From Mobula hypostoma (taxonomy: Eukaryota): a stretch of DNA of 64,000 nucleotides. The notes under the pieces are model-generated. The model saw only the letters and a program-made list of their open reading frames with translations. It was not told the origin of the DNA and did not search any database. Both the position numbers and the translations under genes were made by a program. This document shows positions 2,856-46,700 of the stretch, one piece after another. Within the stretch, counting starts at the first letter, position 1. Each line of letters begins with the position of its first letter. The DNA is taken from NCBI RefSeq assembly GCF_963921235.1, contig NC_086108.1:90708001-90772000 (forward strand). The letters are read 5' to 3'.

Positions 2856-5120
2856 AGAGTGACGTAGTTAATTCAGAAACAAAGGTTCTGAACTTAAAGA
2901 GGGGTAACTTTGAAGGTATGAGACATGAATTAGCTAAGATAGACTGGCAAATGACACTTCAAGGATTGACGGTGGATATGCAATGGCAGGCATTTAAAGG
3001 TTGCATGGATGAACTACAACAATTGTTCATCCCAGTTTGGCAAAAGAATAAATCAAGGAAGGTAGTGCACCCGTGGCTGACAAGAGAAATTAGGGATAGT
3101 ATCAATTCCAAAGAAGTAGCATACAAATTAGCCAGAGAAAGTGGCTCACCTGAGGACTGGGAGAAATTCAGAGTTCAGCAGAGGAGGACAAAGGGCTTAA
3201 TTAGGAAGGGGAAAAAAGATTATGAGAGAAAACTGGCAGAGAACATAAAAACGGACTGTAAAAGCTTTTATAGATATGTAAAAAGGAAAAGACTGATAAA
3301 GACAAATGTAGGTCCCCTGCAAACAGAAACAGGTGAATTGATTATGGGGAGCAAGGACATGGCAGACCAATTGAATAATTACTTTGGTTCTGTCTTCACT
3401 AAGGAGGACATAAATAATCTTCCAGAAATAGTAAGGGACAGAGGGTCCAGTGAGATGGAGGAACTGAGCGAAATACATGTTAGTAGGGAAGTGGTGTTAG
3501 GTAAATTGAAGGGATTGAAGGCAGATAAATCCCCAGGGCCAGATGGTCTGCATCCCAGAGTGCTTAAGGAAGTGGCCCAAGAAATAGTGGATGCATTAGT
3601 GATAATTTTTCAAAACTCGTTAGATTCTGGACTAGTTCCTGAGGATTGGAGGGTGGCTAATGTAACCCCACTTTTTAAAAAAGGAGGGAGAGAGAAACCG
3701 GGGAATTATAGGCCGGTTAGCCTAACGTCGGTGGTGGGGAAACTGCTGGAGTCAGTTATCAAGGATGTGATAACAGCACATTTGGAAAGCGGTGAAATGA
3801 TCGGACAAAGTCAGCATGGATTTGTGAAAGGAAAATCATGTCTGACGAATCTCATAGAATTTTTTGAGGATGTAACTAGTAGAGTGGATAGGGGAGAACC
3901 AGTGGATGTGGTATATTTGGATTTTCAAAAGGCTTTTGACAAGGTCCCACATAGGAGATTAGTGTGCAAACTTAAAGCACACGGTATTGGGGGTAAGGTA
4001 TTGGTGTGGGTGGAGAATTGGTTAGCAGACAGGAAGCAAAGAGTGGGAATAAACGGGACCTTTTCAGAATGGCAGGCGGTGACTAGTGGGGTACCGCAAG
4101 GCTCAGTGCTGGGACCCCAGTTGTTTACAATATATATTAATGACTTGGATGAGGGAATTAAATGCAGCATCTCCAAGTTTGCGGATGACACGAAGCTGGG
4201 TGGCAGTGTTAGCAGTGAGGAGGATGCTAAGAGGATGCAGGGTGACTTGGATAGGTTGGGTGAGTGGGCAAACTCATGGCAGATGCAATTTAATGTGGAT
4301 AAATGTGAAGTTATCCACTTTGGTGGCAAAAATAGGAAAACAGATTATTATCTGAATGGTGGCCGATTAGGAAAAGGGGAGGTGCAACGAGACCTGGGTG
4401 TCATTATACACCAGTCATTGAAAGTGGGCATGCAGGTACAGCAGGCGGTGAAAAAGGCGAACGGTATGCTGGCATTTATAGCGAGAGGATTCGAGTACAG
4501 GAGCAGGGAGGTACTACTGCAGTTGTACAAGGCCTTGGTGAGACCACACCTGGAGTATTGTGTGCAGTTTTGGTCCCCTAATCTGAGGAAAGACATCTTT
4601 GCCATAGAGGGAGTACAAAGAAGGTTCACCAGATTGATTCCTGGGATGGCAGGTCTTTCATATGAAGAAAGACTGGATGAACTGGGCTTGTACTCGTTGG
4701 AATTTAGAAGATTGAGGGGGGATCTGATTGAAACGTATAAGATCCTAAAGGGATTGGACAGGCTAGATGCAGGAAGATTGTTCCCGATGTTGGGGAGGTC
4801 TAGAACGAGGGGTCACAGTTTGAGGATAGAGGGGAAGCCTTTTAGGACCGAGGTTAGGAAAAACTTCTTCACACAGAGAGTGGTGAATCTGTGGAATTCT
4901 CTGCCACAGCAAACTGTTGAGGCCAGTTCATTAGCTATGTTTAAAAGGAAGTTAGATATGGCCCTTGTGGCTACAGGGGTCAGGGGGTATGGAGGGAAGG
5001 CTGGGTTCTGAGTTGGATGATCAGCCATGATCATAATAAATGGCGGTGCAGGCTCGAAGGGCCGAATGGCCTACTCCTGCACCTATTTTCTATGTTTCTA
5101 TGTTTTCTATGTTTCTATGT
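2856..5120 (+). mobile_element. 5'-truncated CR1-clade LINE (HER1-like), young copy
   Basis: Uninterrupted RT ORF, CR1-type 3' UTR and (TTTCTATG)n tail at ~5087-5120. Confidence 0.95.
2918..5011 (+). CDS. CR1 LINE ORF2, reverse transcriptase and C-terminal region (endonuclease domain lost by 5' truncation)
   Basis: 697-aa ORF with KSPGPDG, NYRPVSLTS, QHGF, YLDFQKAFDKV, GVPQGSVLGP, KFADD and RPHLEYCVQFW motifs. The frame stays open upstream of the ATG to the truncation point. Confidence 0.9.
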   Translation: MRHELAKIDWQMTLQGLTVDMQWQAFKGCMDELQQLFIPVWQKNKSRKVVHPWLTREIRDSINSKEVAYKLARESGSPEDWEKFRVQQRRTKGLIRKGKKDYERKLAENIKTDCKSFYRYVKRKRLIKTNVGPLQTETGELIMGSKDMADQLNNYFGSVFTKEDINNLPEIVRDRGSSEMEELSEIHVSREVVLGKLKGLKADKSPGPDGLHPRVLKEVAQEIVDALVIIFQNSLDSGLVPEDWRVANVTPLFKKGGREKPGNYRPVSLTSVVGKLLESVIKDVITAHLESGEMIGQSQHGFVKGKSCLTNLIEFFEDVTSRVDRGEPVDVVYLDFQKAFDKVPHRRLVCKLKAHGIGGKVLVWVENWLADRKQRVGINGTFSEWQAVTSGVPQGSVLGPQLFTIYINDLDEGIKCSISKFADDTKLGGSVSSEEDAKRMQGDLDRLGEWANSWQMQFNVDKCEVIHFGGKNRKTDYYLNGGRLGKGEVQRDLGVIIHQSLKVGMQVQQAVKKANGMLAFIARGFEYRSREVLLQLYKALVRPHLEYCVQFWSPNLRKDIFAIEGVQRRFTRLIPGMAGLSYEERLDELGLYSLEFRRLRGDLIETYKILKGLDRLDAGRLFPMLGRSRTRGHSLRIEGKPFRTEVRKNFFTQRVVNLWNSLPQQTVEASSLAMFKRKLDMALVATGVRGYGGKAGF

Positions 5121-20420: not shown

Positions 20421-23177
20421 CAAAGAAGAGAGTGGACAGAACGCAAAATATATATATATATATCCTCCCAAATAATTATGAAGATATTGCAGGAAAACAA
20501 ACGTTTTAAATTTAGACTCCAGCAGGTGAATTTATCATTTCACCACTGCCAGCAATGTGTTCTTTTTTAAATGTAACAGCTATTAGAAATCTGTAGAATT
20601 GATATTCTTCACTCCATGCCCTAATGCACAAATGTCTCAATGTGCAGGCTCACAAATTTGCATGTATTTACATAGATACAAATAATAGTACGCCAGTTGC
20701 ATAGCAACAGATGATGATGCTTTTTTGGTACATGATGTACAATGCTATGAAATGATTGCACGGAGCTTCAGATTTGATTTTTCTTTTGGGGTATTCTGTT
20801 TTATTTTGAATAAACTTATAAAACAGTGTTTTGTATAGTTTCCTGATCAGAAGCAATGCCCTTCTTCCCTTTGCAAGTCAGAATTCCTTGTTAGACATTG
20901 ACAGTAAGGTTGCTCAGTGTTTTGATTTAAGCTTTAATTCGACTGGCAGTTTCATCCCTTTGATATGGGAAGATATTAAATGGAACCCAGGTGGCTTTTT
21001 ATAGCACAAGTATCATTTGGACAGAGAATACACTTCTTGATGTAAATTTTGCCTAAAGCTGTACTTTTGTTAATATTGTTTATGTATAATAAGACTACTT
21101 AAAAGCTTTTTCTATTAAAATGAGAGACCATTGACCGGCATTAATTTCAATATTAGAAATGTTTAACTGTGGCATAATTGTATTCGCGCTTTGCACAAAG
21201 TTAGCTTGCGTTGAAATAATGAAACATTGTTGGGGATTGCAGAATAAATGCACAGACACCAAAAGTGAATTTTAGGAGGTGAAGGAGTGGAGAGAAGTTT
21301 CAGTTTGTATGTGAGAGTATGTGTGCAACGGTGTGTGGTGGGAGGGGAGGTTGCTGACAGGGTGTTGTTGGGAGGGTATTTATTGGTAGATGCTGTTAGT
21401 AAGTGTTGAAAGAAGAAGAACAAAGCACACGTACATCTAATTGGATAGAGGCAGATGAAAAGGGCATGGAAAATGTAAACTGGGACTAATATTAAAGCAG
21501 AGGCCTCTAGTTAGATCCTACCAGCACTATGTGCAATGGGATTGAAATAAGGCCATGGAGTTCTGGATGAGTGTCTTGCTTGCGTTGTTTTTTTTTTGCA
21601 TTTTATTATTGAATTATTAACCAGCTTTAACCATCCTCACTATAATTAATATCAAACATAAAGTAGAAAATTAATTGCCAGTATTAAAAAAACCTCTAAA
21701 TGCAAATGCAGTCATTAACTGGCTTACTCAAGCATCAATCGTGGCTCTGCCATATTCACGATTGCCTTTGAGTCAGATGATTCAAGTCCCACAACTAAAC
21801 CAATGTGAATCCAACTTCAGATGGAGAGGCATTTCATATGCCTGAGGCGTGCATGTGTGCACATTCAGAGTGCAGGTTGACTTGTCCACTGAAGCATATA
21901 AGAGAAAGGATCTTACATTAGCAGCTGCAGATCACAGGTTCTCCACCACTCTTACTTTGTAATGCAGCTGTGCTTTAACACAAGAATGGTCCATGATGAC
22001 ATCCTGGAAAATGAGGCCTGTTCCCCATATCTCAGGAGGCATCTTTCAATGAATGTGGAATATGATGATGAAATGCCTTCAGTGCTCTGGTGTTAGTCTG
22101 AGGGGAAAAAGAAGTGTTTCACCACAATCTCAAACCCTGCATGATAAACTGAGCAGTAGTAATTCCCCACCTTTTGGTTCGCTTCTTCAAGTCACAATTG
22201 AACTTAGTAATTATATTTAAACTTCAAGTGTATTGCAGAGCACATTAAAAAAAAATCTATTGTCCCAGACATTAGGATTTGTAGCCAATTATCTTGTCAT
22301 TATCGTGTTGTGGTTTAAGGAATCTTGTACACAAATGCATTTTCTACATTTCAACAATAAAGCTGCCTCATTAGTAATTCAGCAGCTGAAGTCATGAAAT
22401 ATATTCAGTTAGATAGTGACTTTCTAACTTTTGTTTATAACCATGGTCCCACTAATTTTGTTAAACAAGTTAACAGGAAGGCAACCTGGTAAATGTTGCA
22501 CAATATATTTATAGTGGATTTCACATAGGTGAAAATAGCACCTATTATTTCTAGTAGTTCACCTTTCCTGCTAAATATATTTTTAAATTTTGTAAAGGCA
22601 GATGTAAATATTGTTACTTCCGAATTTACTTAAGTATTTGAAGTTGACCAGCACATTGTTCTATGATTACTAATTTGTGTTTATTTTTAGTGCTGGAATC
22701 TGCTGGCAGATCTCTGAAATGGCCAGGTTATACATTTTCCTCTCTTAGTAGATCATAGTAGATGTTGTGGCAACTGGGCCTATTTTTCTTAAGCTGTAAG
22801 CAGAGGGAAATGTACTACATTGTAATTAATCTCAAGGCATGACAATATTTTTGGTATTTGTATATTAGAATATAAATAGCATATTTATTGATTCTTTGCC
22901 AGCCCTAAAAGCAAACCATATAACATGGGGCTGAAGTTGTACCTTTGCTTCTCTGAAGGAGATTTGGAGTTTTACATGGTCAAAGTCTGATAGCCAGCTA
23001 ATTAACATTTAATGAGACAACTTACAACTTGTTGTGATGGAATTTGTTCAACCAACTTTCAGTTTGTGAAGAACTTAATATCTAATGCAACAATTTAACA
23101 TAACTCACTTTTTCTGTTAGTATTAGAAGTAGCCATTTCTATTGTAAAGTTATCCATCTGCAATATTAATTAAGTGG

Positions 23178-24156
23178 CTCTCTTTTTCTCTTTCTCTCTC
23201 TCTTTCTCACTCCCTCTCTCTCCCCTCCCTTCCCGCTCATGTTCCCTCTCCCTCTGCCTCCCTCTCCCCCTCTCCCTCTCCCCTCTCTCTCTCCCTCATT
23301 CCTCTCCTTCATTCCTCTCTCTTTCCCTCCCTTCCACCCTCTCTCCCTTTCCCTGCCTCTCCCTCCTCTTCCACTCTCCCTCCATCTTCCATTCCCCTTC
23401 TCCTGCTCCCCTTCTCCCTCTCTCTCTCTCTCTCTCTCACCTCCCTCCCTCTTTCCCTCCCTTTCCGTCCTCCCTCTCCCGCTCTGCATCTCCCTCTTTC
23501 TTCCTCCCTCTCGCCCTGTCCCTCCATCTCCCCTTCCCCTTCTCCATCTCCCCTTCCCCTTCTCCATCTCCCCTTCCCCTTCTCCATCTCCCCTTCCCCT
23601 TCTCCCCCTCCCCTTCTCCTTCTCCCTCTCCCCTTCTCCCTCTCCCCTTCTCCCTCTCCCCTTCTCCCTCTCCCCTTCTCCCTCTCCCCTTCTCCTTCTA
23701 CCTCTCCCCTTCTCCTTCTCCCCCTCCCCTTCTCCCTCTCCCCTTCTCCCTCTCCCCTTCTCCCTCTTCCCTCTCCCCTTCTCCTTCTCCCTCTCCCCTT
23801 CCCCCTCTCCCCTTCCCCCTCTCCCCTTCCCCCTCTCCCCTTCCCCCTCTCCCCTTCTCCTTCTCCCCTTCCCTTCTCCCCCTCCCCTTCTCCCCCTCCC
23901 CTTCTCCCCCTCCCTTCTCCCCTCCTCCTCCTCCCCCTTGCTCCCTCTCCCTCACATCCTCTCTCTTTCCCTGCTTCTCCCTCTCTCTCCCTGCTTCTCC
24001 CTCTCTCTCCCCTTCTTCCTCCTCTATCCTTCTCCCCCTTCCTCCATCTCCCCTTCCCATTCTCCCCCTTGCTCCCCTTCCCTCATCTCCTCTCTCTTTT
24101 CCTCCCTCCCTCTCCCTCTTTCTTCCTCTCTCCCTCTGTCCCTCTCTCCCTATCCT
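23178..24156. repeat. ~1-kb CT-rich polypyrimidine/polypurine low-complexity tract
   Basis: Almost exclusively C/T on the + strand, with (CT)n and tandem CCCCTT/CCCTCT/CTCCAT units. Confidence 0.95.
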
Positions 24157-24414
24157 CAGTGACCTTTTGTGTCTAATCTGGTAGTCAGATTGCTTAATAA
24201 CCAATGCCATTTCGGCATTTCTGGAATTTGCTGTTTTTATTCTAGGATGTGAATCTAATCGTATGTTATTGGGTGCCAAGCTGGAGGAGTTATTTTCTGA
24301 ATGAGGGTCAAGTAGGTATGACATCAGCTCTCTGGAGTTTGAAAGAATAATGTTGGAATCATAGGAGAGATACAACAGGGAACAAGCCCTTCAGCCCATT
24401 GAGTCTGTGCTGAA

Positions 24415-37022: not shown

Positions 37023-37216
37023 TACATTTAACAAGTGTAGAAGTCCTTTCAGATAGCCTGTATATTTGAGAAATAGTTTTTGCAAATTAGCAGTCTACAT
37101 CTGTAGGCTGTAAAAAAGATTATGGAAGTATCCTACTTGTTTTAAAGATGCAAAGGACTGAACAGAACTCATACTTTGTGCATTATCATTTAATGAAACA
37201 ATGTACATTTCAATAG

Positions 37217-37324
37217 GTTTACCAGAGCCAAATAGAGATCTCATCTTTGAAGGCTTAACAGTGGAACATGGCTTCTACACATCGAAGGAATTCCTGCCCC
37301 TTGTTGCAAAAGCCAGCAAAACAG
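37217..37324 (+). CDS. DPYD: Dihydropyrimidine dehydrogenase exon (equivalent to human exon 9)
   Basis: catttcaatag|GT TTA CCA...AAA ACA G|gtagaa; 108 nt; (G)[35 protein letters not shown](G). Confidence 0.97.
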
Positions 37325-39398
37325 GTAGAACTTATGGTTTAATTTTAATTTTGGAATTAAATGCTGGAGTTTGATTTTTTTTGGTCTCTTCATTAATTTT
37401 TCTAACATGAGTAAGCAAACATGAAATGCCATGCACACAAATTAAATAATACAATGTTATTTTTAGATAAAATTACAAACACTTACTTATAAAATGTTAG
37501 AACTTTTAATCTGTGAAAGAACTGTCAGTAAAGCTGATTTTTCATGTATAAAGTGAATGTATCTTTCAATTTATTGATTTCTAACAGGACTGTAGACCTG
37601 GATTGTTTGTCAGACATTGTCTGTGTGTAGTTATCCATTGATTTTGTTGCATTTATTTGGTCTACTGTGAATGCCTGCAAATGAATCATTCTCAGGGTAG
37701 GATATGGTGACATACTGTATGCATACTTTGATAATAAATTTACTTTGAACTTTAAACTTTGGAATTTGCATATTGACAACTTTTGGAATTTTTGTAGAGA
37801 TCTTATAATCTAAAATTAATCAAATTCTTTATTCCTTGGTGCCAGTCTATTTCAACATCTGGCGAAATACGTACATTCTTAACAAAATAAAGACAAGATC
37901 AGTTTAGTGGCCTAAGGACATTGTCCTCAAAAAGTAAAGGCTAACTAAATGCATGATGCAAAGTAAAAAGGCATTAAGATCAAAGACGAATAGTTTCTTT
38001 TTCTGATTTATTTAGATATTGAGTCTTTTGATTGCTTCAGTGTAATGTATGTGATATCTTCTGTTAAAATCTGCAATTCAATGTAGCCTGCAGTCATCCA
38101 TAGAAGATAAAATAATAGGCCTCTTTGCTGAGGGTGCTGGGTGTGAAATTATGTATATGAATACATTTTAAAAGGAATAAAAATGCCCTGCATTGAAACA
38201 GAATAATTTGATACTAATATGGTTCATCTCTACATTGTAAAATCTACAGCTTTACAATTTACTGAAGTATCTTCTTGTGTCTTTGTGATGGCAGGGATGA
38301 ATAGTTTGGGGACTAAATTGAATAGCCTGTAAGATCCAGTGAGGTATGCTGCAAAAGCATCTCATCAACACCCCTTGATTGCAATGCAGACTGCACAGCA
38401 ACTTGATGCAATCTGCTCATGATTTTTCTGAGCAGCAAGGTCTTAGTGTGTTGTTCATTGGCTGTGGACTGATACCATGAAGAGCTTGCAAGGGAAACCA
38501 CATTCATGTTGCTTAAAGCTAGCCTAAATTTTTTTAAAGGACAATGTGCTAACTTGTAACAGGTCATTTTGCGTCATCCAGGAGTGAATTCGACTAGGAA
38601 CGTGGTGAAGAATTACACCACCTAGAAGAAGCAATCTCCAAGTTTTCAAGTTCTGACTTGGTGAAAATGGGGGGAAATAGTGACAAAATCCTCTATTCTC
38701 CCGGGAGGACCTCCAGACATATGCTCAGACAGTATTGGGATTGCAGAGTCACTGTGGTCAACATTGCAATTTAAGACGAAGGTTGCAGTGTCACGGTGAA
38801 TTCAATGTCTTCTTGCATATGTTCATGGTCGGTGAATCAATTGCCGCATCTGCTCAATACTAGCAGTGCCCTATTTATCTCAGCTACAATAATAGTGATC
38901 CATTTGGACTTGCGTGCTTCACCTTATCCTTGTACACATAGCTCGCACTCATATCTCACAATACATGCTTATGTCAAACATGGCAATCACATCATGTGAT
39001 TATGTGACCGTCGCAAACATTTACAATGACAGGGTTGAATAATCTGAGGATGACATTGTTATAACATCTTCTCTTCTCCTTTTCCTGAAAGCTCCTCTGA
39101 TTGGAAAGGTGCAAGTGCACAATCGTGTACCTATAACTTCCCCCTCTCCTCTAACCATAGTCCTGCCCTTGTGAATTTCATCTTCTGCTGGATAAGTTGT
39201 AACCAGGTCAGAGAGCTGAGCACTAAACAGGGACGGAATAGGCCAGAGGTTCCTTGAAGCCTCATCAACTACTCATTGAACCCACGGTTGATCTGATCAT
39301 GATCTCAGCTTCACTTCCCCTTCCCCCCACTGTTCCTCGTAACAGTTGACTCTGTTACAGACCAAAAAAAAATGCCCATTTCAGCAATATATTGAGTG

Positions 39399-39602
39399 GC
39401 GTACACAAAATGCAGGAATAACTCAGTGGTCAGGTAGCATCTATGGAGAGGAATTAAGAGTTGACGTGCAGGCTGAGAACTTCTTCAGCACCATAGATCC
39501 TGATATTCTCTGTAGAAGCTGCCTGACCTTCTGAGTTCCTCCAGCATTTTGTGTTTGTTACTCTGGATTTGCAGCATCTGCAGAATCTCTTGTGTTTAGA
39601 CT
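39399..39602. mobile_element. Palindromic PLE-derived mini-element (two inverted pLTR ends) with 12-bp TSD
   Basis: acacaaaatgcaggaataactcagtggtcaggtagc...gctgcctgaccttctgagttcctccagcattttgtgt; atatattgagtg at 39387-39398 and 39603-39614. Confidence 0.75.
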
Positions 39603-41707
39603 ATATATTGAGTGATTTGGGTTTCATAGTAGAGAACTCTAAGAATAATGAATCTCATGAAGAAGAAATTCCTCCTTTTCTCATTGGTTAATGCTTTGGG
39701 TTGAAAGAAGACCCTCTATTTTTGGAAACATCCCTATATGAAGTACCATATCAAGTCTTTTCAGAATTTTGTATGTAAGATTAGATATCTTCCAAGCTTC
39801 AGTGAATAAAGGCATAGTGTGTTAAACATATCTTCACTAAAGCCTCACCAGTGATGAGAGCATAGACCACTGGAGACCATCCGGTAGTGTTCCATTCTTC
39901 TGCTGCTGAACTGTTTAAGATCGTCCTCCAAATTCAACTGATTATCGGCAACATCCCCCTCCCCCATCACCCAGTCTTTGATACTGTAGACACTGGTTTG
40001 GCTGCAAAAGAACAGTCGGACAGAAAAGATACCTAGTCAGCAAGCACAAGCATGAATAACATGATGCAAAATCTAATAAGCATGCTTTTATTTATAGAGT
40101 TTATTTAGAGTGTTGATTGTGGTTGGTTTGACTTTTGGTTTTATATCAGGTTGATGCTATGGTAGTCAGTAATATTAGGGAGATGACCTGTAGGACTATT
40201 GATGAAAGCAGAAGTGGCTTGTGCTTACCAGCAGAACATTCAGATGAGTTGTTCCCCATATAATCTGGACAAGGTGGCCTTGTCCTTTCCTCTCCCTTGT
40301 CCTGTGTTTACTCTTCCACTATAATTGGTGGCATGTTAGCGTAGTGGTTAGCATAATGCTTAACACCACCATTGACCAGTATTCAATTCCTGCCGCTGTC
40401 AGTAAAAGGTTTGTACATTCTGGCCATGACTGGTGTTTTTTTTTCCTGATTGCTCCAACTTCCTCGCATTGACATTGCAAAGATGTATGGGTTGTAGGTT
40501 GTGGGCTCTCTTGGCAGTGGAAGCAGGGCACCACTTGTGGCCTGCCCCAGCACACTCTCACACTGTGTTGATCATTGACGTAAATGACGCCTTTCAATGT
40601 ACCTGTGACAAATAAAGCTAATCTTTTAAAATCTGCTGCTTGTGCTCATGATGCTCGGTCACAATGTGTGCCCCTGCATAATGGTGAGATTTTCTATCAT
40701 GTGCAGGGGTGTACACCAGAGCCATGTTCCAAGGTGTTGGCAGGTGCCACTTCTTTTCCTGCTACTACTTTGTGGTTTGTACGTATGCAGCTCAATTTTT
40801 GACTGATGCAGAATTAAAGTATCATACTTGCAACTGACCTTTATAATTTGCAGCCCTTGATAATACATGAGCTGATTGTTGAGAGAATAGAATGCTTCCT
40901 TTAGTTCATGCATAAGCCATGGTTGACGTGTTTGACCTGTGAAGCAATAGGTGTGAATCCAATGTAGCATGAAAGTGCTTACAATCATAATAAAGCCACA
41001 TATTGCTTCCTGTAAGGGAGAATAAAATGCGGTTTGGATGGAGGATCTCAACAACTTATAAGAACAGATGCTGGAAATCCAGTGCAATATTACCTGGATT
41101 TCAAAGGTGATGCTTCCAAACTAGAAGGAGACAAGTGTGTAGAGGTGTACAGTCACGGTCATCTTGACAGCCACTTACAGAGGAATCCCTGCCCAGTTTT
41201 GTGGCTTCAGCTGGCAGATTTTATTCAAAGTGCCTTGTCACACAAGTGTCTTGAGCGTTGTTGCTTGCTGAGGTTTAGGGTTGTTTCCTAGACACCTACA
41301 CTGCGTATGGCCTCTTTCTGACAAACCTGATCCCCTTCTACACCCCCTGCGTTCAAATATTTTCCCATGCTGCCTGCGTTCATTTCCCAATCCCTTCTTT
41401 ATGCGGTATTCCTGCAGAATACTTGCTAATGCAGCCAGTTTATGCAGTGTCCTCAGGGTCTTTCAGTTTTTGCCACACAGAGCCCCACAGACTCCAGAAT
41501 ATTTAAAGTGCTTCATAAAGCACCGGCGACCTCTGTAATCATAGTAAGTCCCATTAGCAGTCAGATAGAAACTGGTCTGGGAGAAACTGTTGATCTCTTT
41601 AAATTACGCAAACACGAGGAATTCTGCAGATGCTGGAAGTTCAGGCAACACACATCAAAGTTGCTGGTGAACGCAGCAGGCCAGGCAGCATCTCTAGGAA
41701 GAGGTGC

Positions 41708-41743
41708 AGTCGACGTTTCGGGCCGAGACCCTTCGTCAGGACT
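41708..41743 (-). ncRNA. Minimal type I hammerhead ribozyme motif, intact
   Basis: Minus strand AGUC-CUGACGA-A-GGGU(CUCG)GCCC-GAAA-CG-UC^GACU. Confidence 0.8.
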
Positions 41744-42198
41744 AACTGAAGGAAGAGCTAGTAAGAGGTTTGAAAGTGGGAGGGTGAGGGGGAGATCCAA
41801 AATGATAGGAGAAGACAGGAGGGGGAGGGATGGAGCCAAGAGCTGGACAGGTGATTGGCAAAAGAGATATGAGAGGATCATGGGACAGGAGGCCCAGGGA
41901 GAAGGAAAAGGGGGAAGGGGGGGAAAACTCAGAGGGGGGGCAAGGGGTATAGTCAGAGGGACAGAGGGAGATCTCTCCTGTCCCTCTGACTATACCCCTT
42001 GCCCACCCTCTGAGTTTTCCCCCCCTTCCCCCTTTTCCTTCTCCCTGGGCCTCCTGTCCCATGATCCTCTCATATCTCTTTTGCCAATCACCTGTCCAGC
42101 TCTTGGCTCCATCCCTCCCCCTCCTGTCTTCTCCTATCATTTTGTATCTCGCCCTCCCCCTCCCACTTGCAAATCTCTTACTAGCTCTTCCTTCAGTT

Positions 42199-42234
42199 AG
42201 TCCTGACGAAGGGTCTCGGCCCGAAACGTCGACT
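42199..42234 (+). ncRNA. Minimal type I hammerhead ribozyme motif, intact, sense to DPYD pre-mRNA
   Basis: AGTC(42199-202) CTGACGA(42203-09) A GGGT CTCG GCCC(42211-22) GAAA(42223-26) CG TC^ GACT(42231-34); predicted cleavage after C42230. Confidence 0.8.
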
Positions 42235-42441
42235 GCACCTCTTCTTAGAGATGCTGCCTGGCCTGCTGCGTTCACCAGCAACTTCGATGTGTGTTGCATC
42301 TCTTTACATTATACTTTTTTGCTGCTGAGCACAAACATAATAATGTAAGTTAAGAGGGGGCATCATCTGGAGCTCTGAGAATTGTATGTTGTAAAATTAG
42401 CATTATACACCAGTCCTCTAGTCCAATTAACATTATACTCC

Positions 42442-42576
42442 AGCCCTGCCAAAGGGTTTCGACCTGAAACGTCGACTGTACCCTTTTCCTAGATGCTGCC
42501 TGGCCTGCTGAGTTCCTCCAGCATTTTGTGTGTGTTGCTTGGATTTCCAGCATCTTCAGATTTTTCTCGTTTGTGA
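42442..42576 (+). mobile_element. PLE pLTR end with partly decayed hammerhead
   Basis: agccctgccaaagggtttcgacctGAAACGTCGACT: CUGANGA core broken, GAAACGUC^GACU retained. Confidence 0.75.
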
Positions 42577-42787
42577 TTATACACTGAGTGATATCTTAAC
42601 CTGCTTGCTCTGAATAATTCCAGCAGACATATACTGTGCATATGTTAATGATTGCACTAATACTTTATCCTATGTGTACACAGGTTGCTCATGTTTAAAA
42701 TGCCACTTTGAATCATTAAAAATGTGTGATGCTTGAAATTGCTCCAATTTCTATCATTCTGAAGGAAAGCCATTTGTTTTCTTTCAG

Positions 42788-42957
42788 GAGTGTGCGCCTG
42801 TCAGGCTGGTCTGCCATCAATGCAAGGCACAGTCGTCGTACTTGGTGCTGGAGACACTGCCTTTGACTGTGCAACATCTGCACTACGCTGTGGAGCTCGC
42901 CGTGTGTTTGTGGTTTTTAGAAAAGGATTTACCAATATCAGGGCTGTCCCAGAGGAG
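42788..42957 (+). CDS. DPYD: Dihydropyrimidine dehydrogenase exon (equivalent to human exon 10; NADPH-binding [10 protein letters not shown] motif)
   Basis: tttgttttctttcag|GA GTG TGC...GAG GAG|gtaaaa; 170 nt; [56 protein letters not shown]. Confidence 0.98.
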
Positions 42958-43792
42958 GTAAAATTCAACAAGCTTTAACACTCAGGATTTAATACAATCA
43001 GGCTCACCAGATGGAGCGTGGATTGCAAGCATTCTCTTTATTAAGTTGTGTGCCCTGTTACTTAATATCTCAAGATCATCATAAGACAACTTAGTTGTTG
43101 TTTGCCTAGCAACTCTATTCCAGAAATAATATTTTTGATCTTTTCTCAGTATCCATTAGAAATCACAGGAAATCTCTCTAATAAAGCTGTCTTTTTTTTC
43201 TATCAACTTAATAGCACGTTGTCTTAATTAGTTAGTATGTTTTTGTGTCATACAATTTATAGTAATTAACAGGAGCAGCATTCTTAAATTTGTCTTGGAA
43301 GTCACTAAATTATAGCAAGAATTGATCATTAGAAACTGAGGAAGTATATATTACTGTAACAAGATTGAATCCTGTTCTAATTAAATAATTGCTATTGTAT
43401 GGTAGTGCGTACTGGGCTGTTTGTTCTGAACAATATATTTGCCCAGTCAGTGCATCAACGTTCCACTGTTGTTTTGGTCATCTTTCTATTAGGGTATGAA
43501 TTACTGTGTTCTGGTTTACTGCATTGACTTGTGAAGCAACTTTTGTAAAGTCAGCTGTGCAATAAAGTGGGGTGCTGTCATGGTGGAGCTCCAGGATATG
43601 TTATCCAAAGACTCATTAGCTAGCATATATTCCCTTTTAACCAGACATATCTGTTGTGTTAGATCTGCCAATGCTTCATCATTGTAAAATCTGTGATTTC
43701 CTTTACCTTCAATTTCTTTGGTCTGAAATGATTTTGCTCCCTTTCCTTGACTTAATAGCTCATTTATTTGAAACCTAAACATGGTTTGTTAC

Positions 43793-46700
43793 AAACACAA
43801 GAAGAGCTGCAGATGCTGGAAATCCAAGCAGCACACACAAAATGCTGGAGCTACTCAGAGGCCAGGCAGCATCTATGGAAAGGAGTAAACATTTGATGTT
43901 CCAGGTCCAGACCCTTCTTCAGAGCTGAGAGGGAAGGGGGTGATGCCCAAATTAAGTGGTGTTGGGAGAGGAAAGAGGCTAGCTGGAAAGTGATAGATGC
44001 AGCCAGGTGTGTGGGAAAGGTCAAGGGCTGGAGAAGAAAGAATCGCATAGGAGAGGAGAGTGGACCATTGGAGAAAGGGAAGGAGGAGGGGACTGGGGGG
44101 ATGTAATGGACAGTGAGAAGAAGTAAAAGCTTAGACTGGGGAATAAAGGAGGGGGTGGGTGGATTTTATTCACTGGAAGGAGAGATCAATATTCATACCA
44201 TCAGGTTGGAGGGTACCCAGATAGGATATAAGCTGTTGCTTCTCCATCCTGAGGGGGACCTCATCTTGGCACAAGAGGAGACAGTGACGGATTGACATGC
44301 CGTGGGAATGGGAATAGGAATTAAAATGTTTGGCCACCGGGAAGTCCTGCTTGTGCAGATGGTGCGAAGATGCTGGACGAAGCAGTCCCTCAATTTAGGA
44401 TGAGTATCACCAATGTAAAGGAAGCCACATTGGGACCACCAGACATAAAATACTACCCCAGCAGATTCACAGGTGAAGTGTTGCCTCACTTGGAGGGTCT
44501 ACCTGGGACTCTAGATGGAGGTGAGGGAGGAGGTGTATGGGCAAGTGTAGCACTTAGGTTGCATGCAAGGATAAGTGCCTGATAGGAGATTAGTGGGGAG
44601 GGAGCGAATGGATTAGGGAAATGCGGAGGGAGTGAATGGATTAGGGAAATGCGGAGGGAGCGAATGGATTAGGGAAATGCGGAGGGAGTGATCTGTATGG
44701 AAAGCTGAGTGGGGGGGGGAAGGAGGTGAAGATATGTTTAGGGGTAGGGTCCATTTGGAGATGGCAGAAGTTGTAGAATATATTATGTTGGATTCAGAGG
44801 CCGATGCGGTGGTTAGTAAGGATAGAAGTGACTCTATCACTATTACAAGCAGGGAAGATGGTGTAAGCACAGATGTATGGGAAATGGAGGAGATATGGGT
44901 AAGGGCAGCATCAGTAGTAGAGGGAGAGAAACCCTGTTCTTTAAGGAAAGAGGACAGGTAAGATATCGCGGAATGTTCTACCCCCACTCCAAGGTTGACA
45001 AACTGTCCGGGTAGGCCTATTGTCTCTGCCTGCTCCTGCCTCACTGAATTTGTGTCCTCGTATCTCGATTCTAATCTTTCTCCTTGGTTCAGTTCCTTCC
45101 CACCTACATCCACGATAGTTCTTGTGCCCTCAATCTTTTCTATAACTTTCAATTCCCTAGGCCCTGACCGCCTCAACTTCACCATGGATGTTCAGTCCCT
45201 ATGCACTTCTATCCTCCATCATAAAGGCCTCAAAGTCCTCTCCTTATTCCTTGACAGGAGAACCAACCAATCCCCCTCCACCTCCACCCTTCTCTGTCTG
45301 GCAGAACTGGTCCTCACCCTGAACAGTTTTTCCTTTGGCTCCTCCCACTTTCTCCAAACCTGAGGGATAGCCATGGACACTCATATGGGCCCAAGCTTTG
45401 CCTACTTCTTCGTTGGCTATGTAGAACAGTCAATGTTTGAAGCCTCCCCGGTTATACTTCCCAACTCTTCCTCTGCTACATTGACAACTGAATTAGTGCT
45501 GCTTCATGTGTCCATACTAAGCTCATCAATTTCATTAACTTTGCCTCTAACTTCCACCCTACCGTTAAATTCACTTGGACCATCTCTGACACTTCCCTCG
45601 CTTTCTTGATTTCTCTACCTCCATCTCTGGAGACAAAGTGTCAACCGATATCTCTTATAAAACTACTGATTCCTATGGTTATTTTGACTATATCTGCTCA
45701 CACTCTATCTCCTGTAAACATCCTATTCCCTTTTCTCAGATTTTTTGCCTCAGCTACATGTGTTCTCAGGATGCGGCTTTCCACTCCAGGACATCAGAGA
45801 TGTCCTCCTCCTTTAAAGAACAAGGTTTCTGTTCCTCTACTATTGATGCTGCTTTCACCTGTATCTCCTCCATTTCCCATACATCTGTGCTCACCCCATC
45901 TTCCCTGCTTTGTAATAGTGATGGAGTCCCTCTTGTACTTATCTACCACCCCATCAGCCTCTGTATCCAACACATTATCCTCTGCAGCTTCCACCATTTC
46001 CAAAGGGACCCTACCACTAAGCATATCTTTATCTACCCTCTACCCCGCCCCCCATCCGCTTTCCACAGGGATCACTCCCTCCCGATTCCTTTGTCCATTT
46101 GTCTGATCCCTCTAATCTCCCTCCAGGAACTTATCCCTGTAAGCGAATACACCAACACCTACCTATACTCGTCCTCGCTCACCTCCATTCAGAACGCCAA
46201 ACAGTTCTTCCAGGTGAGGCAACACTTCACACGTGGATCTGCTGGGGTGGTCTATTGTGTCCTTTGCTCCCGAAGCAGCCGCCTCTACGTCGCTGAGACC
46301 CTTCGTAAATTGGGGGACTGCTTCATCGAGCACCTCCGCACCACCTGCCACAAACTAGACTTTCGGGAGGCCAGACATTTTAATTTAGATTTCCTTTCCA
46401 GTTCTAATATGTTGATCCACGGCTTCCTCTTGTGCCAAGATGAGGCCACCCTTAGTGTGGAGGAGTAATACCTTATATTCCATCTGGGTACCCTCCAACC
46501 TGATGGCATGAATTCCACCCCCCTTCCCTATCCTCAGTTTACCTCTTACTTATTCTCACCTGCCTATTTTTCCCCCGGGTTCCCTCCTCCTCCCTTTTCT
46601 CCTATAATGCATTCTCCTCTACTATCTGATTCTTTCTTCTCCAGCCCTTGTCCTTTCCCATCAACCGGGCTTCACCTATCACCTTCCTGCCAGCCTCTTT

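What the first reader, a model, noticed from the sequence alone, without database searches (positions are those of the whole stretch)
41593..42311. Near-perfect ~650-bp palindrome with an intact hammerhead in each arm, inserted as one event ~490 nt upstream of exon 10
The ~326-bp arms (41645-41971 / 41972-42297) differ at only a few positions and have essentially no spacer (centre ...gaga|tctc...). A 14-bp TSD with one mismatch brackets the whole unit. Transcription in either direction gives one sense ribozyme and its full antisense, so the RNA can be a long dsRNA hairpin (ADAR/Dicer/MDA5-type substrate) that masks its own ribozyme, and the DNA can extrude a cruciform. Inverted pLTR structures are known for PLEs, but this ORF-less, young, double-ribozyme palindrome inside a host intron is the best candidate here for an undescribed retrozyme-like mobile RNA unit.
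Basis: partly seen in the sequence, partly recalled or inferred. Interest (0 to 1): 0.75.

Follow-up and report, generated by a model that had tools for sequence, protein, structure and literature searches.

The report
Head-to-head Penelope stump in DPYD intron
This 690-base mirror-image insertion is real but ordinary: it is two shortened end pieces of an abundant Penelope-type jumping gene that landed back to back in an intron, a layout already published for this class, and its ribozyme motif is predicted to be inactive here.

Summary
The palindrome is real: 320-bp arms with 8 substitutions, a 14-bp target duplication with one mismatch, in the intron before the DPYD exon at 42790. Contigs of two related species span the empty site. 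It is not a retrozyme-like mobile unit. Each arm is a 5'-truncated pseudo-LTR of a Penelope-like element (PLE) with an RT + GIY-YIG frame elsewhere in the genome; the 37-nt hammerhead stretch occurs 4,542 times. The centre junction occurs once. This layout (inverted pLTR, one-sided tail, TSD) is published. The hammerhead is the minimal PLE type, with no loop 3; it likely needs a same-sense partner, and the hairpin would mask it. Likely mechanism: both cut target strands prime reverse transcription, one at each of two fixed RNA start sites, and the truncated cDNAs join head to head. Editing and expression were not tested. This scan reported the same pattern at other loci before.

The parts
41594..41607 (+). 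left target-site duplication (14 bp)
   Evidence: one copy only at the empty site of organisms C and D, judged from contig coordinates
41608..41644 (-). 37-nt PLE 'tail', present on the left arm only
   Evidence: family ends are bimodal at arm position ~324 and ~362; in L088 the sequence runs on from the tail into the ORF N-terminus
41645..41971 (-). left arm: 5'-truncated pseudo-LTR, element sense on the minus strand
41707..41743 (-). minimal type I hammerhead motif of the left arm (antisense in the DPYD pre-mRNA)
   Evidence: mirror of 42199-42235
41965..41977 (.). head-to-head junction; unique in the genome
41978..42297 (+). right arm: 5'-truncated pseudo-LTR without tail
42199..42235 (+). 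minimal type I hammerhead motif (stem I AGUC/GACU, core CUGACGA, extra A, stem II, GAAAC-GUC, predicted cut after C42230)
   Evidence: sequence; descriptor in PMC4209133; folds into a non-hammerhead rod as a monomer
42298..42311 (+). right target-site duplication (1 mismatch to the left copy)
42442..42563 (+). separate, older copy of a related pLTR end (82%) with a broken hammerhead core (CUGCCAA); not part of this insertion; its 5' part is present beyond the empty site in organisms C and D
42790..42957 (+). host DPYD exon downstream of the insertion (residues 321-376); the upstream exon lies near 37210-37315

Best explanation
The palindrome is a single, ORF-less insertion of two 5'-truncated pseudo-LTR ends of an abundant Penelope-like retroelement joined head to head between a 14-bp target duplication, likely made when both cut strands of the target each primed reverse transcription on element RNA, one at the tail start site and one ~37 nt upstream. 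Shown: identity of the arms as PLE pLTR, TSD, empty site in relatives, one-sided tail, unique junction, family-wide pattern. Inferred: the GIY-YIG endonuclease makes a staggered cut of about 13-14 nt; the two cDNAs stop early (here at arm positions 1 and 8, in a TC-rich stretch) and their free ends are joined with a few added or micro-homologous bases; both copies came from RNA of one source copy (four or five shared minor alleles). The unit is likely dead on arrival: no ORF, no tandem same-sense hammerheads, and in the DPYD pre-mRNA the sense hammerhead is predicted to be paired with its antisense.
For: Arm lies directly downstream of an RT + CxxC-linker + GIY-YIG frame at other loci; 738-aa open frame at L064:2322-4535, RVT_1 E 1.7e-5 and GIY-YIG E 0.0013, both under the curated cut-offs; L088 reads from tail into the next ORF start, i.e. 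tandem pLTR-ORF. 4,542 exact hammerhead 37-mers, reversed control 0. In 86 loci (84 distinct) 3' ends fall at <=340 (48) or >=350 (37), 1 between. 34 head-to-head units (33 distinct): 32 of 34 have the tail at one end only; TSD >=10 bp in 26 of 34 against 3 of 300 mismatched pairings, mostly 13-14 bp. Either arm can be the longer: tail-less 13, tail 8, equal 2 of 23 simple units. Centre unique. Empty site spanned in organisms C and D. Published layout: PMC3846280, PMC8557442; tail = stretch between two RT start sites, both strands cut and extended in vitro: PMC11167929.
Against: The two-primer step is not shown by any search; a self-priming fold-back (proposed in PMC3846280) also gives head-to-head arms from one template and would equally explain shared minor alleles (40 observed vs 10.4 expected over 24 units, 18 of the 40 from one unit). 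The sample is one contig and only copies with a perfect hammerhead 37-mer. 8 of 34 units have no TSD of 10 bp or more. The in vitro work is on a Poseidon-clade element and reports no start-site difference between strands. The arms here are more alike (97.5%) than either is to any of 82 other copies (max 96.9%), which held for only 1 of 25 other units, so later arm-to-arm conversion is not excluded.
Confidence: 0.9

Rival explanations
1. Same identity (dead PLE insertion), different mechanism: one priming event followed by fold-back or self-priming of the cDNA or an antisense template makes the second arm.
For: Proposed for head-to-head PLE units in PMC3846280; arms share minor alleles, 5 vs 0.29 expected here; several units are nearly symmetric.
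Against: Both outer ends sit at two fixed family positions (tail ends 358-364, tail-less ends 310-333 in 31 units) and either arm may extend further 5'; many junctions are far from symmetric, 5' ends differing by up to 1,518 nt.
Confidence: 0.3
2. The palindrome is itself a non-autonomous, retrozyme-like mobile RNA that spreads as a unit.
For: ORF-less, TSD-flanked, hammerhead core in both arms; three other 660-680 bp look-alikes with centres within about 10 nt exist (L004, L122, L124).
Against: Junction unique; the look-alikes have different junctions; a control centre 120 nt away has 9 palindromes against 3 here; retrozymes are defined as same-sense tandem repeats with a hammerhead in each unit (10.64898/2026.07.22.740005), while this unit gives one sense and one antisense motif; minimal PLE hammerheads did not cleave as monomers (PMC4209133).
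Confidence: 0.02
3. Assembly or library fold-back artefact.
For: The centre junction is not among the contig pieces listed for run X1 (table cut), and X1's two junction contigs reach only 22 and 25 nt into the element, under the tool's 31-letter rule; X1 may be the assembly's own sample.
Against: Arms differ at 8 sites with 3 derived on the left and 5 on the right, the tail is one-sided, a TSD brackets the unit, both X1 junction contigs match with 0 differences at flank depth with outward-facing ends, and the empty site is contiguous in two other organisms.
Confidence: 0.02
4. The insertion has been co-opted: the intronic hairpin is edited or diced and affects DPYD splicing or level.
For: Predicted 320-bp hairpin 492 nt upstream of an exon; probably shared by two organisms; arms unusually alike.
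Against: Arm divergence (2.5%) matches neutral flank divergence between A and B (2.1%); absent in C and D; hundreds to thousands of like units are expected genome-wide.
Confidence: 0.05

Closest known systems
EN+ Penelope-like element insertions with inverted pLTR, one-sided tail and TSD (Pen2a_Av, Pen2_Av of Adineta vaga, PMC3846280; general scheme in PMC8557442 Fig. 2)
   Same: [quoted passage not shown]
   Different: Here both arms are truncated inside the pLTR so no ORF is left; TSD mostly 13-14 bp against 8-10 bp in the rotifer; family is very abundant.
PAc (Poseidon of Anolis carolinensis), PMC11167929
   Same: Hammerhead in the pLTR just before the tail and ORF start, two fixed 3' ends about a tail length apart, AT-rich target.
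   Different: The family here has a cysteine motif between RT and EN (TYPCKRNKCYTCPY), the feature that PMC8557442 gives for Neptune/Nematis rather than Poseidon; no tree was built. The PAc hammerhead overlaps the start codon, whereas here the likely start lies some 40 nt beyond the tail.
Minimal type I hammerheads of metazoan PLEs, PMC4209133
   Same: No loop 3, palindromic 15.2-16.2, extra base between 9 and 10.1, G10.1-C11.1 pair, short helix I.
   Different: Here arranged as sense plus antisense, so the dimeric active form cannot form within the unit.
Non-LTR retrozymes (10.64898/2026.07.22.740005)
   Same: ORF-less, about 300-400 nt, type I hammerhead, PLE pLTR origin.
   Different: Retrozymes are direct tandem repeats; this is an inverted pair made at insertion, with no sign of spreading as a unit.

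Membership tests
EN+ Penelope-like element (truncated insertion) | Parent element with RT followed by C-terminal GIY-YIG endonuclease in one ORF | tested here: met
   738-aa frame at L064 upstream of the same arm; RVT_1 E 1.7e-5, GIY-YIG E 0.0013, both below Pfam cut-offs; motifs YIDD and IYC..YIGET visible
EN+ Penelope-like element (truncated insertion) | pLTR shared by the 3' end of one unit and the 5' end of the next (tandem organisation) | tested here: met
   L088 and L109 run from the tail into the ORF 5' region; partial tandem in L064
EN+ Penelope-like element (truncated insertion) | Inverted 5'-truncated copy adjacent at the 5' end with a 30-40 nt tail at one end only | tested here: met
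EN+ Penelope-like element (truncated insertion) | TSD around the whole unit, single at the empty site | tested here: met
   (empty site judged from contig coordinates; its letters were not printed)
EN+ Penelope-like element (truncated insertion) | Hammerhead motif in the pLTR | tested here: met
   sequence fits the minimal descriptor of PMC4209133; not detected by Rfam
Neptune clade | [quoted passage not shown] | tested here: met
   cysteine motif TYPCKRNKCYTCPY in L064; criterion from PMC8557442
Neptune clade | Placement in an RT phylogeny | not tested
   no reference PLE proteins fetched, no tree built
Non-LTR retrozyme | Two or more consecutive direct tandem units, each with a complete hammerhead | tested here: not met
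   inverted pair; the only same-sense neighbour (42442-42482) has a broken core
Non-LTR retrozyme | Spreads as a unit (several copies with the same structure and junction) | tested here: not met
   junction found once at up to 2 mismatches
Non-LTR retrozyme | Self-cleavage and circular RNA | not testable with these tools
   needs in vitro cleavage and RNA data

The most novel reading that the evidence does not exclude
The family-wide rule seen here (one tail end plus one tail-less end in 31 of 33 head-to-head units, 13-14 bp TSD, either arm longer, arms from one source copy) is the genomic footprint of a two-primer mechanism: a dimeric PLE protein cuts both strands with a fixed stagger and starts one cDNA at each of the two RNA start sites, so the inverted pLTR and the one-sided tail of all PLEs come from one reaction. 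This genome would then offer a thousand or more dated products to test it, and each is a long intronic or intergenic dsRNA, a fish counterpart of inverted Alu pairs.
Probability: 0.45. Interest if true: 0.5.

Novelty: new member of a known kind. Interest (0 to 1): 0.17.

Why it matters
As a locus it matters little: a dead PLE stump in an intron, one of many. The family statistics are of some use because how PLEs make inverted pLTRs and one-sided tails is still stated as open (PMC8557442, PMC11167929), and they give a concrete prediction for the existing in vitro system. The presence/absence pattern also makes it a clean phylogenetic marker among the organisms.

Tried and rejected
Rfam scan of the whole window: no hammerhead family; only generic miRNA-hairpin matches under their gathering scores. 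Copies with the same centre: none; the DNA search scored only 40 of 1,281 candidates and gave one near-centre palindrome (L003/L004) with another junction. A hot spot at this centre: rejected, 3 palindromes against 9 at a control centre. Fossil A-to-I editing in the arm differences: the 8 changes are of mixed kinds with no A>G excess. Co-folding two hammerhead 56-mers gave an intermolecular duplex, not a clear double hammerhead: uninformative. tRNA-like segment (lead from note e1-8797765): ARAGORN finds no gene in the window, a weak test. Pfam found nothing on four decayed PLE frames in the window. A paper search for Penelope + palindromic + shark + retrotransposon gave 2 unrelated listings; three searches in all found no paper naming this family, which is a narrow search and does not cover Repbase or Dfam. 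Sequence look-up of earlier scan notes gave nothing.

Full report
Observation. The inverted repeat is there: arms 41645-41964 and 41978-42297, 320 nt, 98% complementary. Aligning the reverse strand of 41608-41971 to 41972-42297 gives 9 mismatches and 1 indel, 8 mismatches within the 320-bp arms, and shows 37 nt (41608-41644) on the left with no counterpart on the right. A 14-bp direct repeat with one mismatch (41594-41607, 42298-42311) brackets the 690-bp unit. The + strand RNA is predicted to fold into one long hairpin, -715.7 kcal/mol, z -40.9. The exon at 42790-42957 is dihydropyrimidine dehydrogenase residues 321-376 and the preceding exon-like stretch lies near 37210-37315; exon numbering (9, 10) and the guess that the host is a ray-like cartilaginous fish are recalled, not tested. 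The window is G000:C50:90708001-90772000 of a 3.48-Gb assembly.

What the arms are. A search of the genome with the centre returned mostly single arms (82 matches from 40 scored candidates of 1,281). At those loci the arm continues upstream into the end of a reading frame with a GIY-YIG-type C-terminus whose stop lies about 80 nt before arm position 1. L064 holds a 738-aa open frame with RVT_1 (E 1.7e-5) and GIY-YIG (E 0.0013), both under Pfam's curated cut-offs, followed by the same arm and a partial tandem copy. In L088 the sequence runs on from the 37-nt extension into the N-terminal part of the next ORF, and L109 shares 206 nt of that run-on. So the arm is the pseudo-LTR of an endonuclease-bearing Penelope-like element, and the 37 nt are its tail. 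A cysteine motif between RT and EN fits the Neptune-type linker named in PMC8557442 (passages read); no tree was built. The 37-nt hammerhead stretch occurs 2,294 + 2,248 times without mismatch, reversed control 0.

Is the palindrome special? I took the first 87 of the 100 listed matches, in positional order on contig C1, as 86 loci; two pairs (L052/L053, L057/L058) cover the same place, leaving 84 distinct. This sample holds only copies with a perfect 37-mer and one contig. Their 3' ends are bimodal: 48 at arm position 340 or less (mode 324), 37 at 350 or more (360-364), 1 between. By nearest upstream neighbour 35 are inverted, 7 tandem and 44 solo (the window's own unit left out). Chaining to an inverted copy that reaches the 3' region gives 34 head-to-head units (33 distinct); 32 of 34 (31 of 33) have the tail on exactly one end, the exceptions being L088, which reads on into an ORF, and the complex L074. 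A duplication of 10 bp or more flanks 26 of 34 (25 of 33), mostly 13-14 bp, against 3 of 300 mismatched flank pairs; 20 of 42 solo copies also have one, by a slightly looser search without its own control. Junction positions differ from unit to unit. The junction of this unit occurs once in the genome at up to 2 mismatches. A gapped pattern finds 3 near-symmetric palindromes at this centre, own included, and 9 at a control centre about 120 nt away. Of 8 other near-symmetric units examined (L004, L122, L124 and 5 of the 9 controls), 8 have one tail end and one shorter end and 7 have a duplication of 10 bp or more; L004, L122 and L124 are 660-680 bp look-alikes with the hammerhead pattern in both arms and their own junctions and flanks. 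Each palindrome is thus made anew at insertion.

Empty site and age. Contigs of four runs were laid on 41000-42760. In organism C one contig covers 41006-41592 and continues at the next base with 42298-42469, skipping 705 bases (690 + 14 expected, plus one). In organism D one contig covers 41006-41574 and 42298-42479 with 3 letters between. Both are empty sites with long flanks on each side. In organism A both junctions are present with 0 differences at flank depth, though only 22 and 25 nt into the element, below the tool's bridging rule, the centre is not among the listed pieces, and the run may be the assembly's own sample. In organism B a contig joins the right flank to the last 23 nt of the element, the left contig stops at 41595, and no listed contig spans an empty site: presence is likely, not shown. 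Flank divergence from the window is 2.1% (B), 6.7% (C) and 9.3% (D); the arms differ by 2.5%. This fits insertion after the split from C and around or just before the A/B split, followed by neutral decay. Of the 8 arm differences 3 are derived on the left and 5 on the right, of mixed kinds, which argues against a fold-back artefact and shows no editing bias.

The ribozyme. The motif has stem I AGUC/GACU, core CUGACGA, an extra A, stem II closed by G-C, then GAAAC-GUC with no loop 3. That is the minimal PLE hammerhead of PMC4209133 (passages read), which did not cleave as a monomer and only weakly as a dimer. As a 56-nt monomer it is predicted to fold into a rod with the core paired, z -0.38. 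In PAc the hammerhead needed the protein and was not needed for insertion in vitro (PMC11167929, parts 1 and 2 of 4 read). The palindrome offers one sense and one antisense copy per transcript, and the nearest same-sense relative (42442-42482) has a broken core. 'Intact' is true of the letters, not of a working monomeric ribozyme.

Mechanism. Shown: one event, TSD, two fixed 3' end positions, unique junction. Inferred: a staggered double-strand cut, two priming events at the two start sites that PMC11167929 equates with the tail boundaries, early termination and end joining. In favour, tail ends lie at 358-364 and tail-less ends at 310-333 in 31 units, and either arm may be longer (13, 8, 2 of 23). 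Against or neutral, the arms share minor alleles more than expected (5 vs 0.29 here; 40 vs 10.4 in 24 other units, 18 from one unit), which fits one source RNA population but also the self-priming model of PMC3846280 (passages read) or later arm-to-arm conversion; this unit's arms are more alike than to any of 82 other copies, true of 1 of 25 other units.

Comparison with what is known. PMC3846280 describes an inverted pLTR completing the insert, a 31-bp tail on one inverted pLTR, a TSD around the unit and head-to-head junction palindromes; PMC8557442 gives the same as the general PLE scheme. The retrozyme preprint 10.64898/2026.07.22.740005 (part 1 of 5 and passages read) defines non-LTR retrozymes as direct tandem repeats with a hammerhead in each unit and derives them from PLE pLTRs; this unit fails that definition. 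No supplements were read; those of the preprint are closed and might list a chondrichthyan family like this one. PMC11722881, PMC10794571 and PMC5745447 were seen as listings only. Earlier notes of this scan, read after my reading was fixed, reach the same conclusion at other loci of this and other genomes; they are not independent evidence.

Verdict. A real, ordinary product of PLE insertion: new member of a known kind, interest 0.17. The part worth keeping is the family-level rule, which gives a testable prediction on how PLEs make inverted ends.

Noticed in passing
window 39394-39597: An older, smaller head-to-head unit of a related pLTR end in the same intron, tail on the right, with an apparent 12-bp flanking repeat (ATATATTGAGTG) read by eye.
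   Followed up: partly
window 43792-46512: Decayed head-to-head unit of a related PLE (68-75% to the reference) that includes RT and GIY-YIG pieces: antisense 44956-44180 and 43922-43792, sense 44976-46512, downstream of the DPYD exon.
   Followed up: partly
window 2858-5011 (+): 717-aa open frame of a CR1/L2-like LINE reverse transcriptase (RVT_1 E 6e-34; class recalled), apparently young.
   Followed up: no
window 23148-24184: About 1 kb of pyrimidine-rich low-complexity repeat (GC skew -0.52 in 22001-24000), a possible triplex-forming tract.
   Followed up: no
L088 (G000:C1:30022223-30028259): Copy in which pLTR and tail run into a long N-terminal ORF region of the PLE, giving the element's 5' organisation; frame broken further on.
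   Followed up: partly
L048 (G000:C1:7791656-7794692): Head-to-head unit whose arms share 18 minor alleles against 1.6 expected: a divergent source copy or arm-to-arm conversion.
   Followed up: no
L034, L041, L057, L094, L101, L109: Head-to-head units with one or more short internal element segments in either orientation at the junction, suggesting template jumps before end joining.
   Followed up: no
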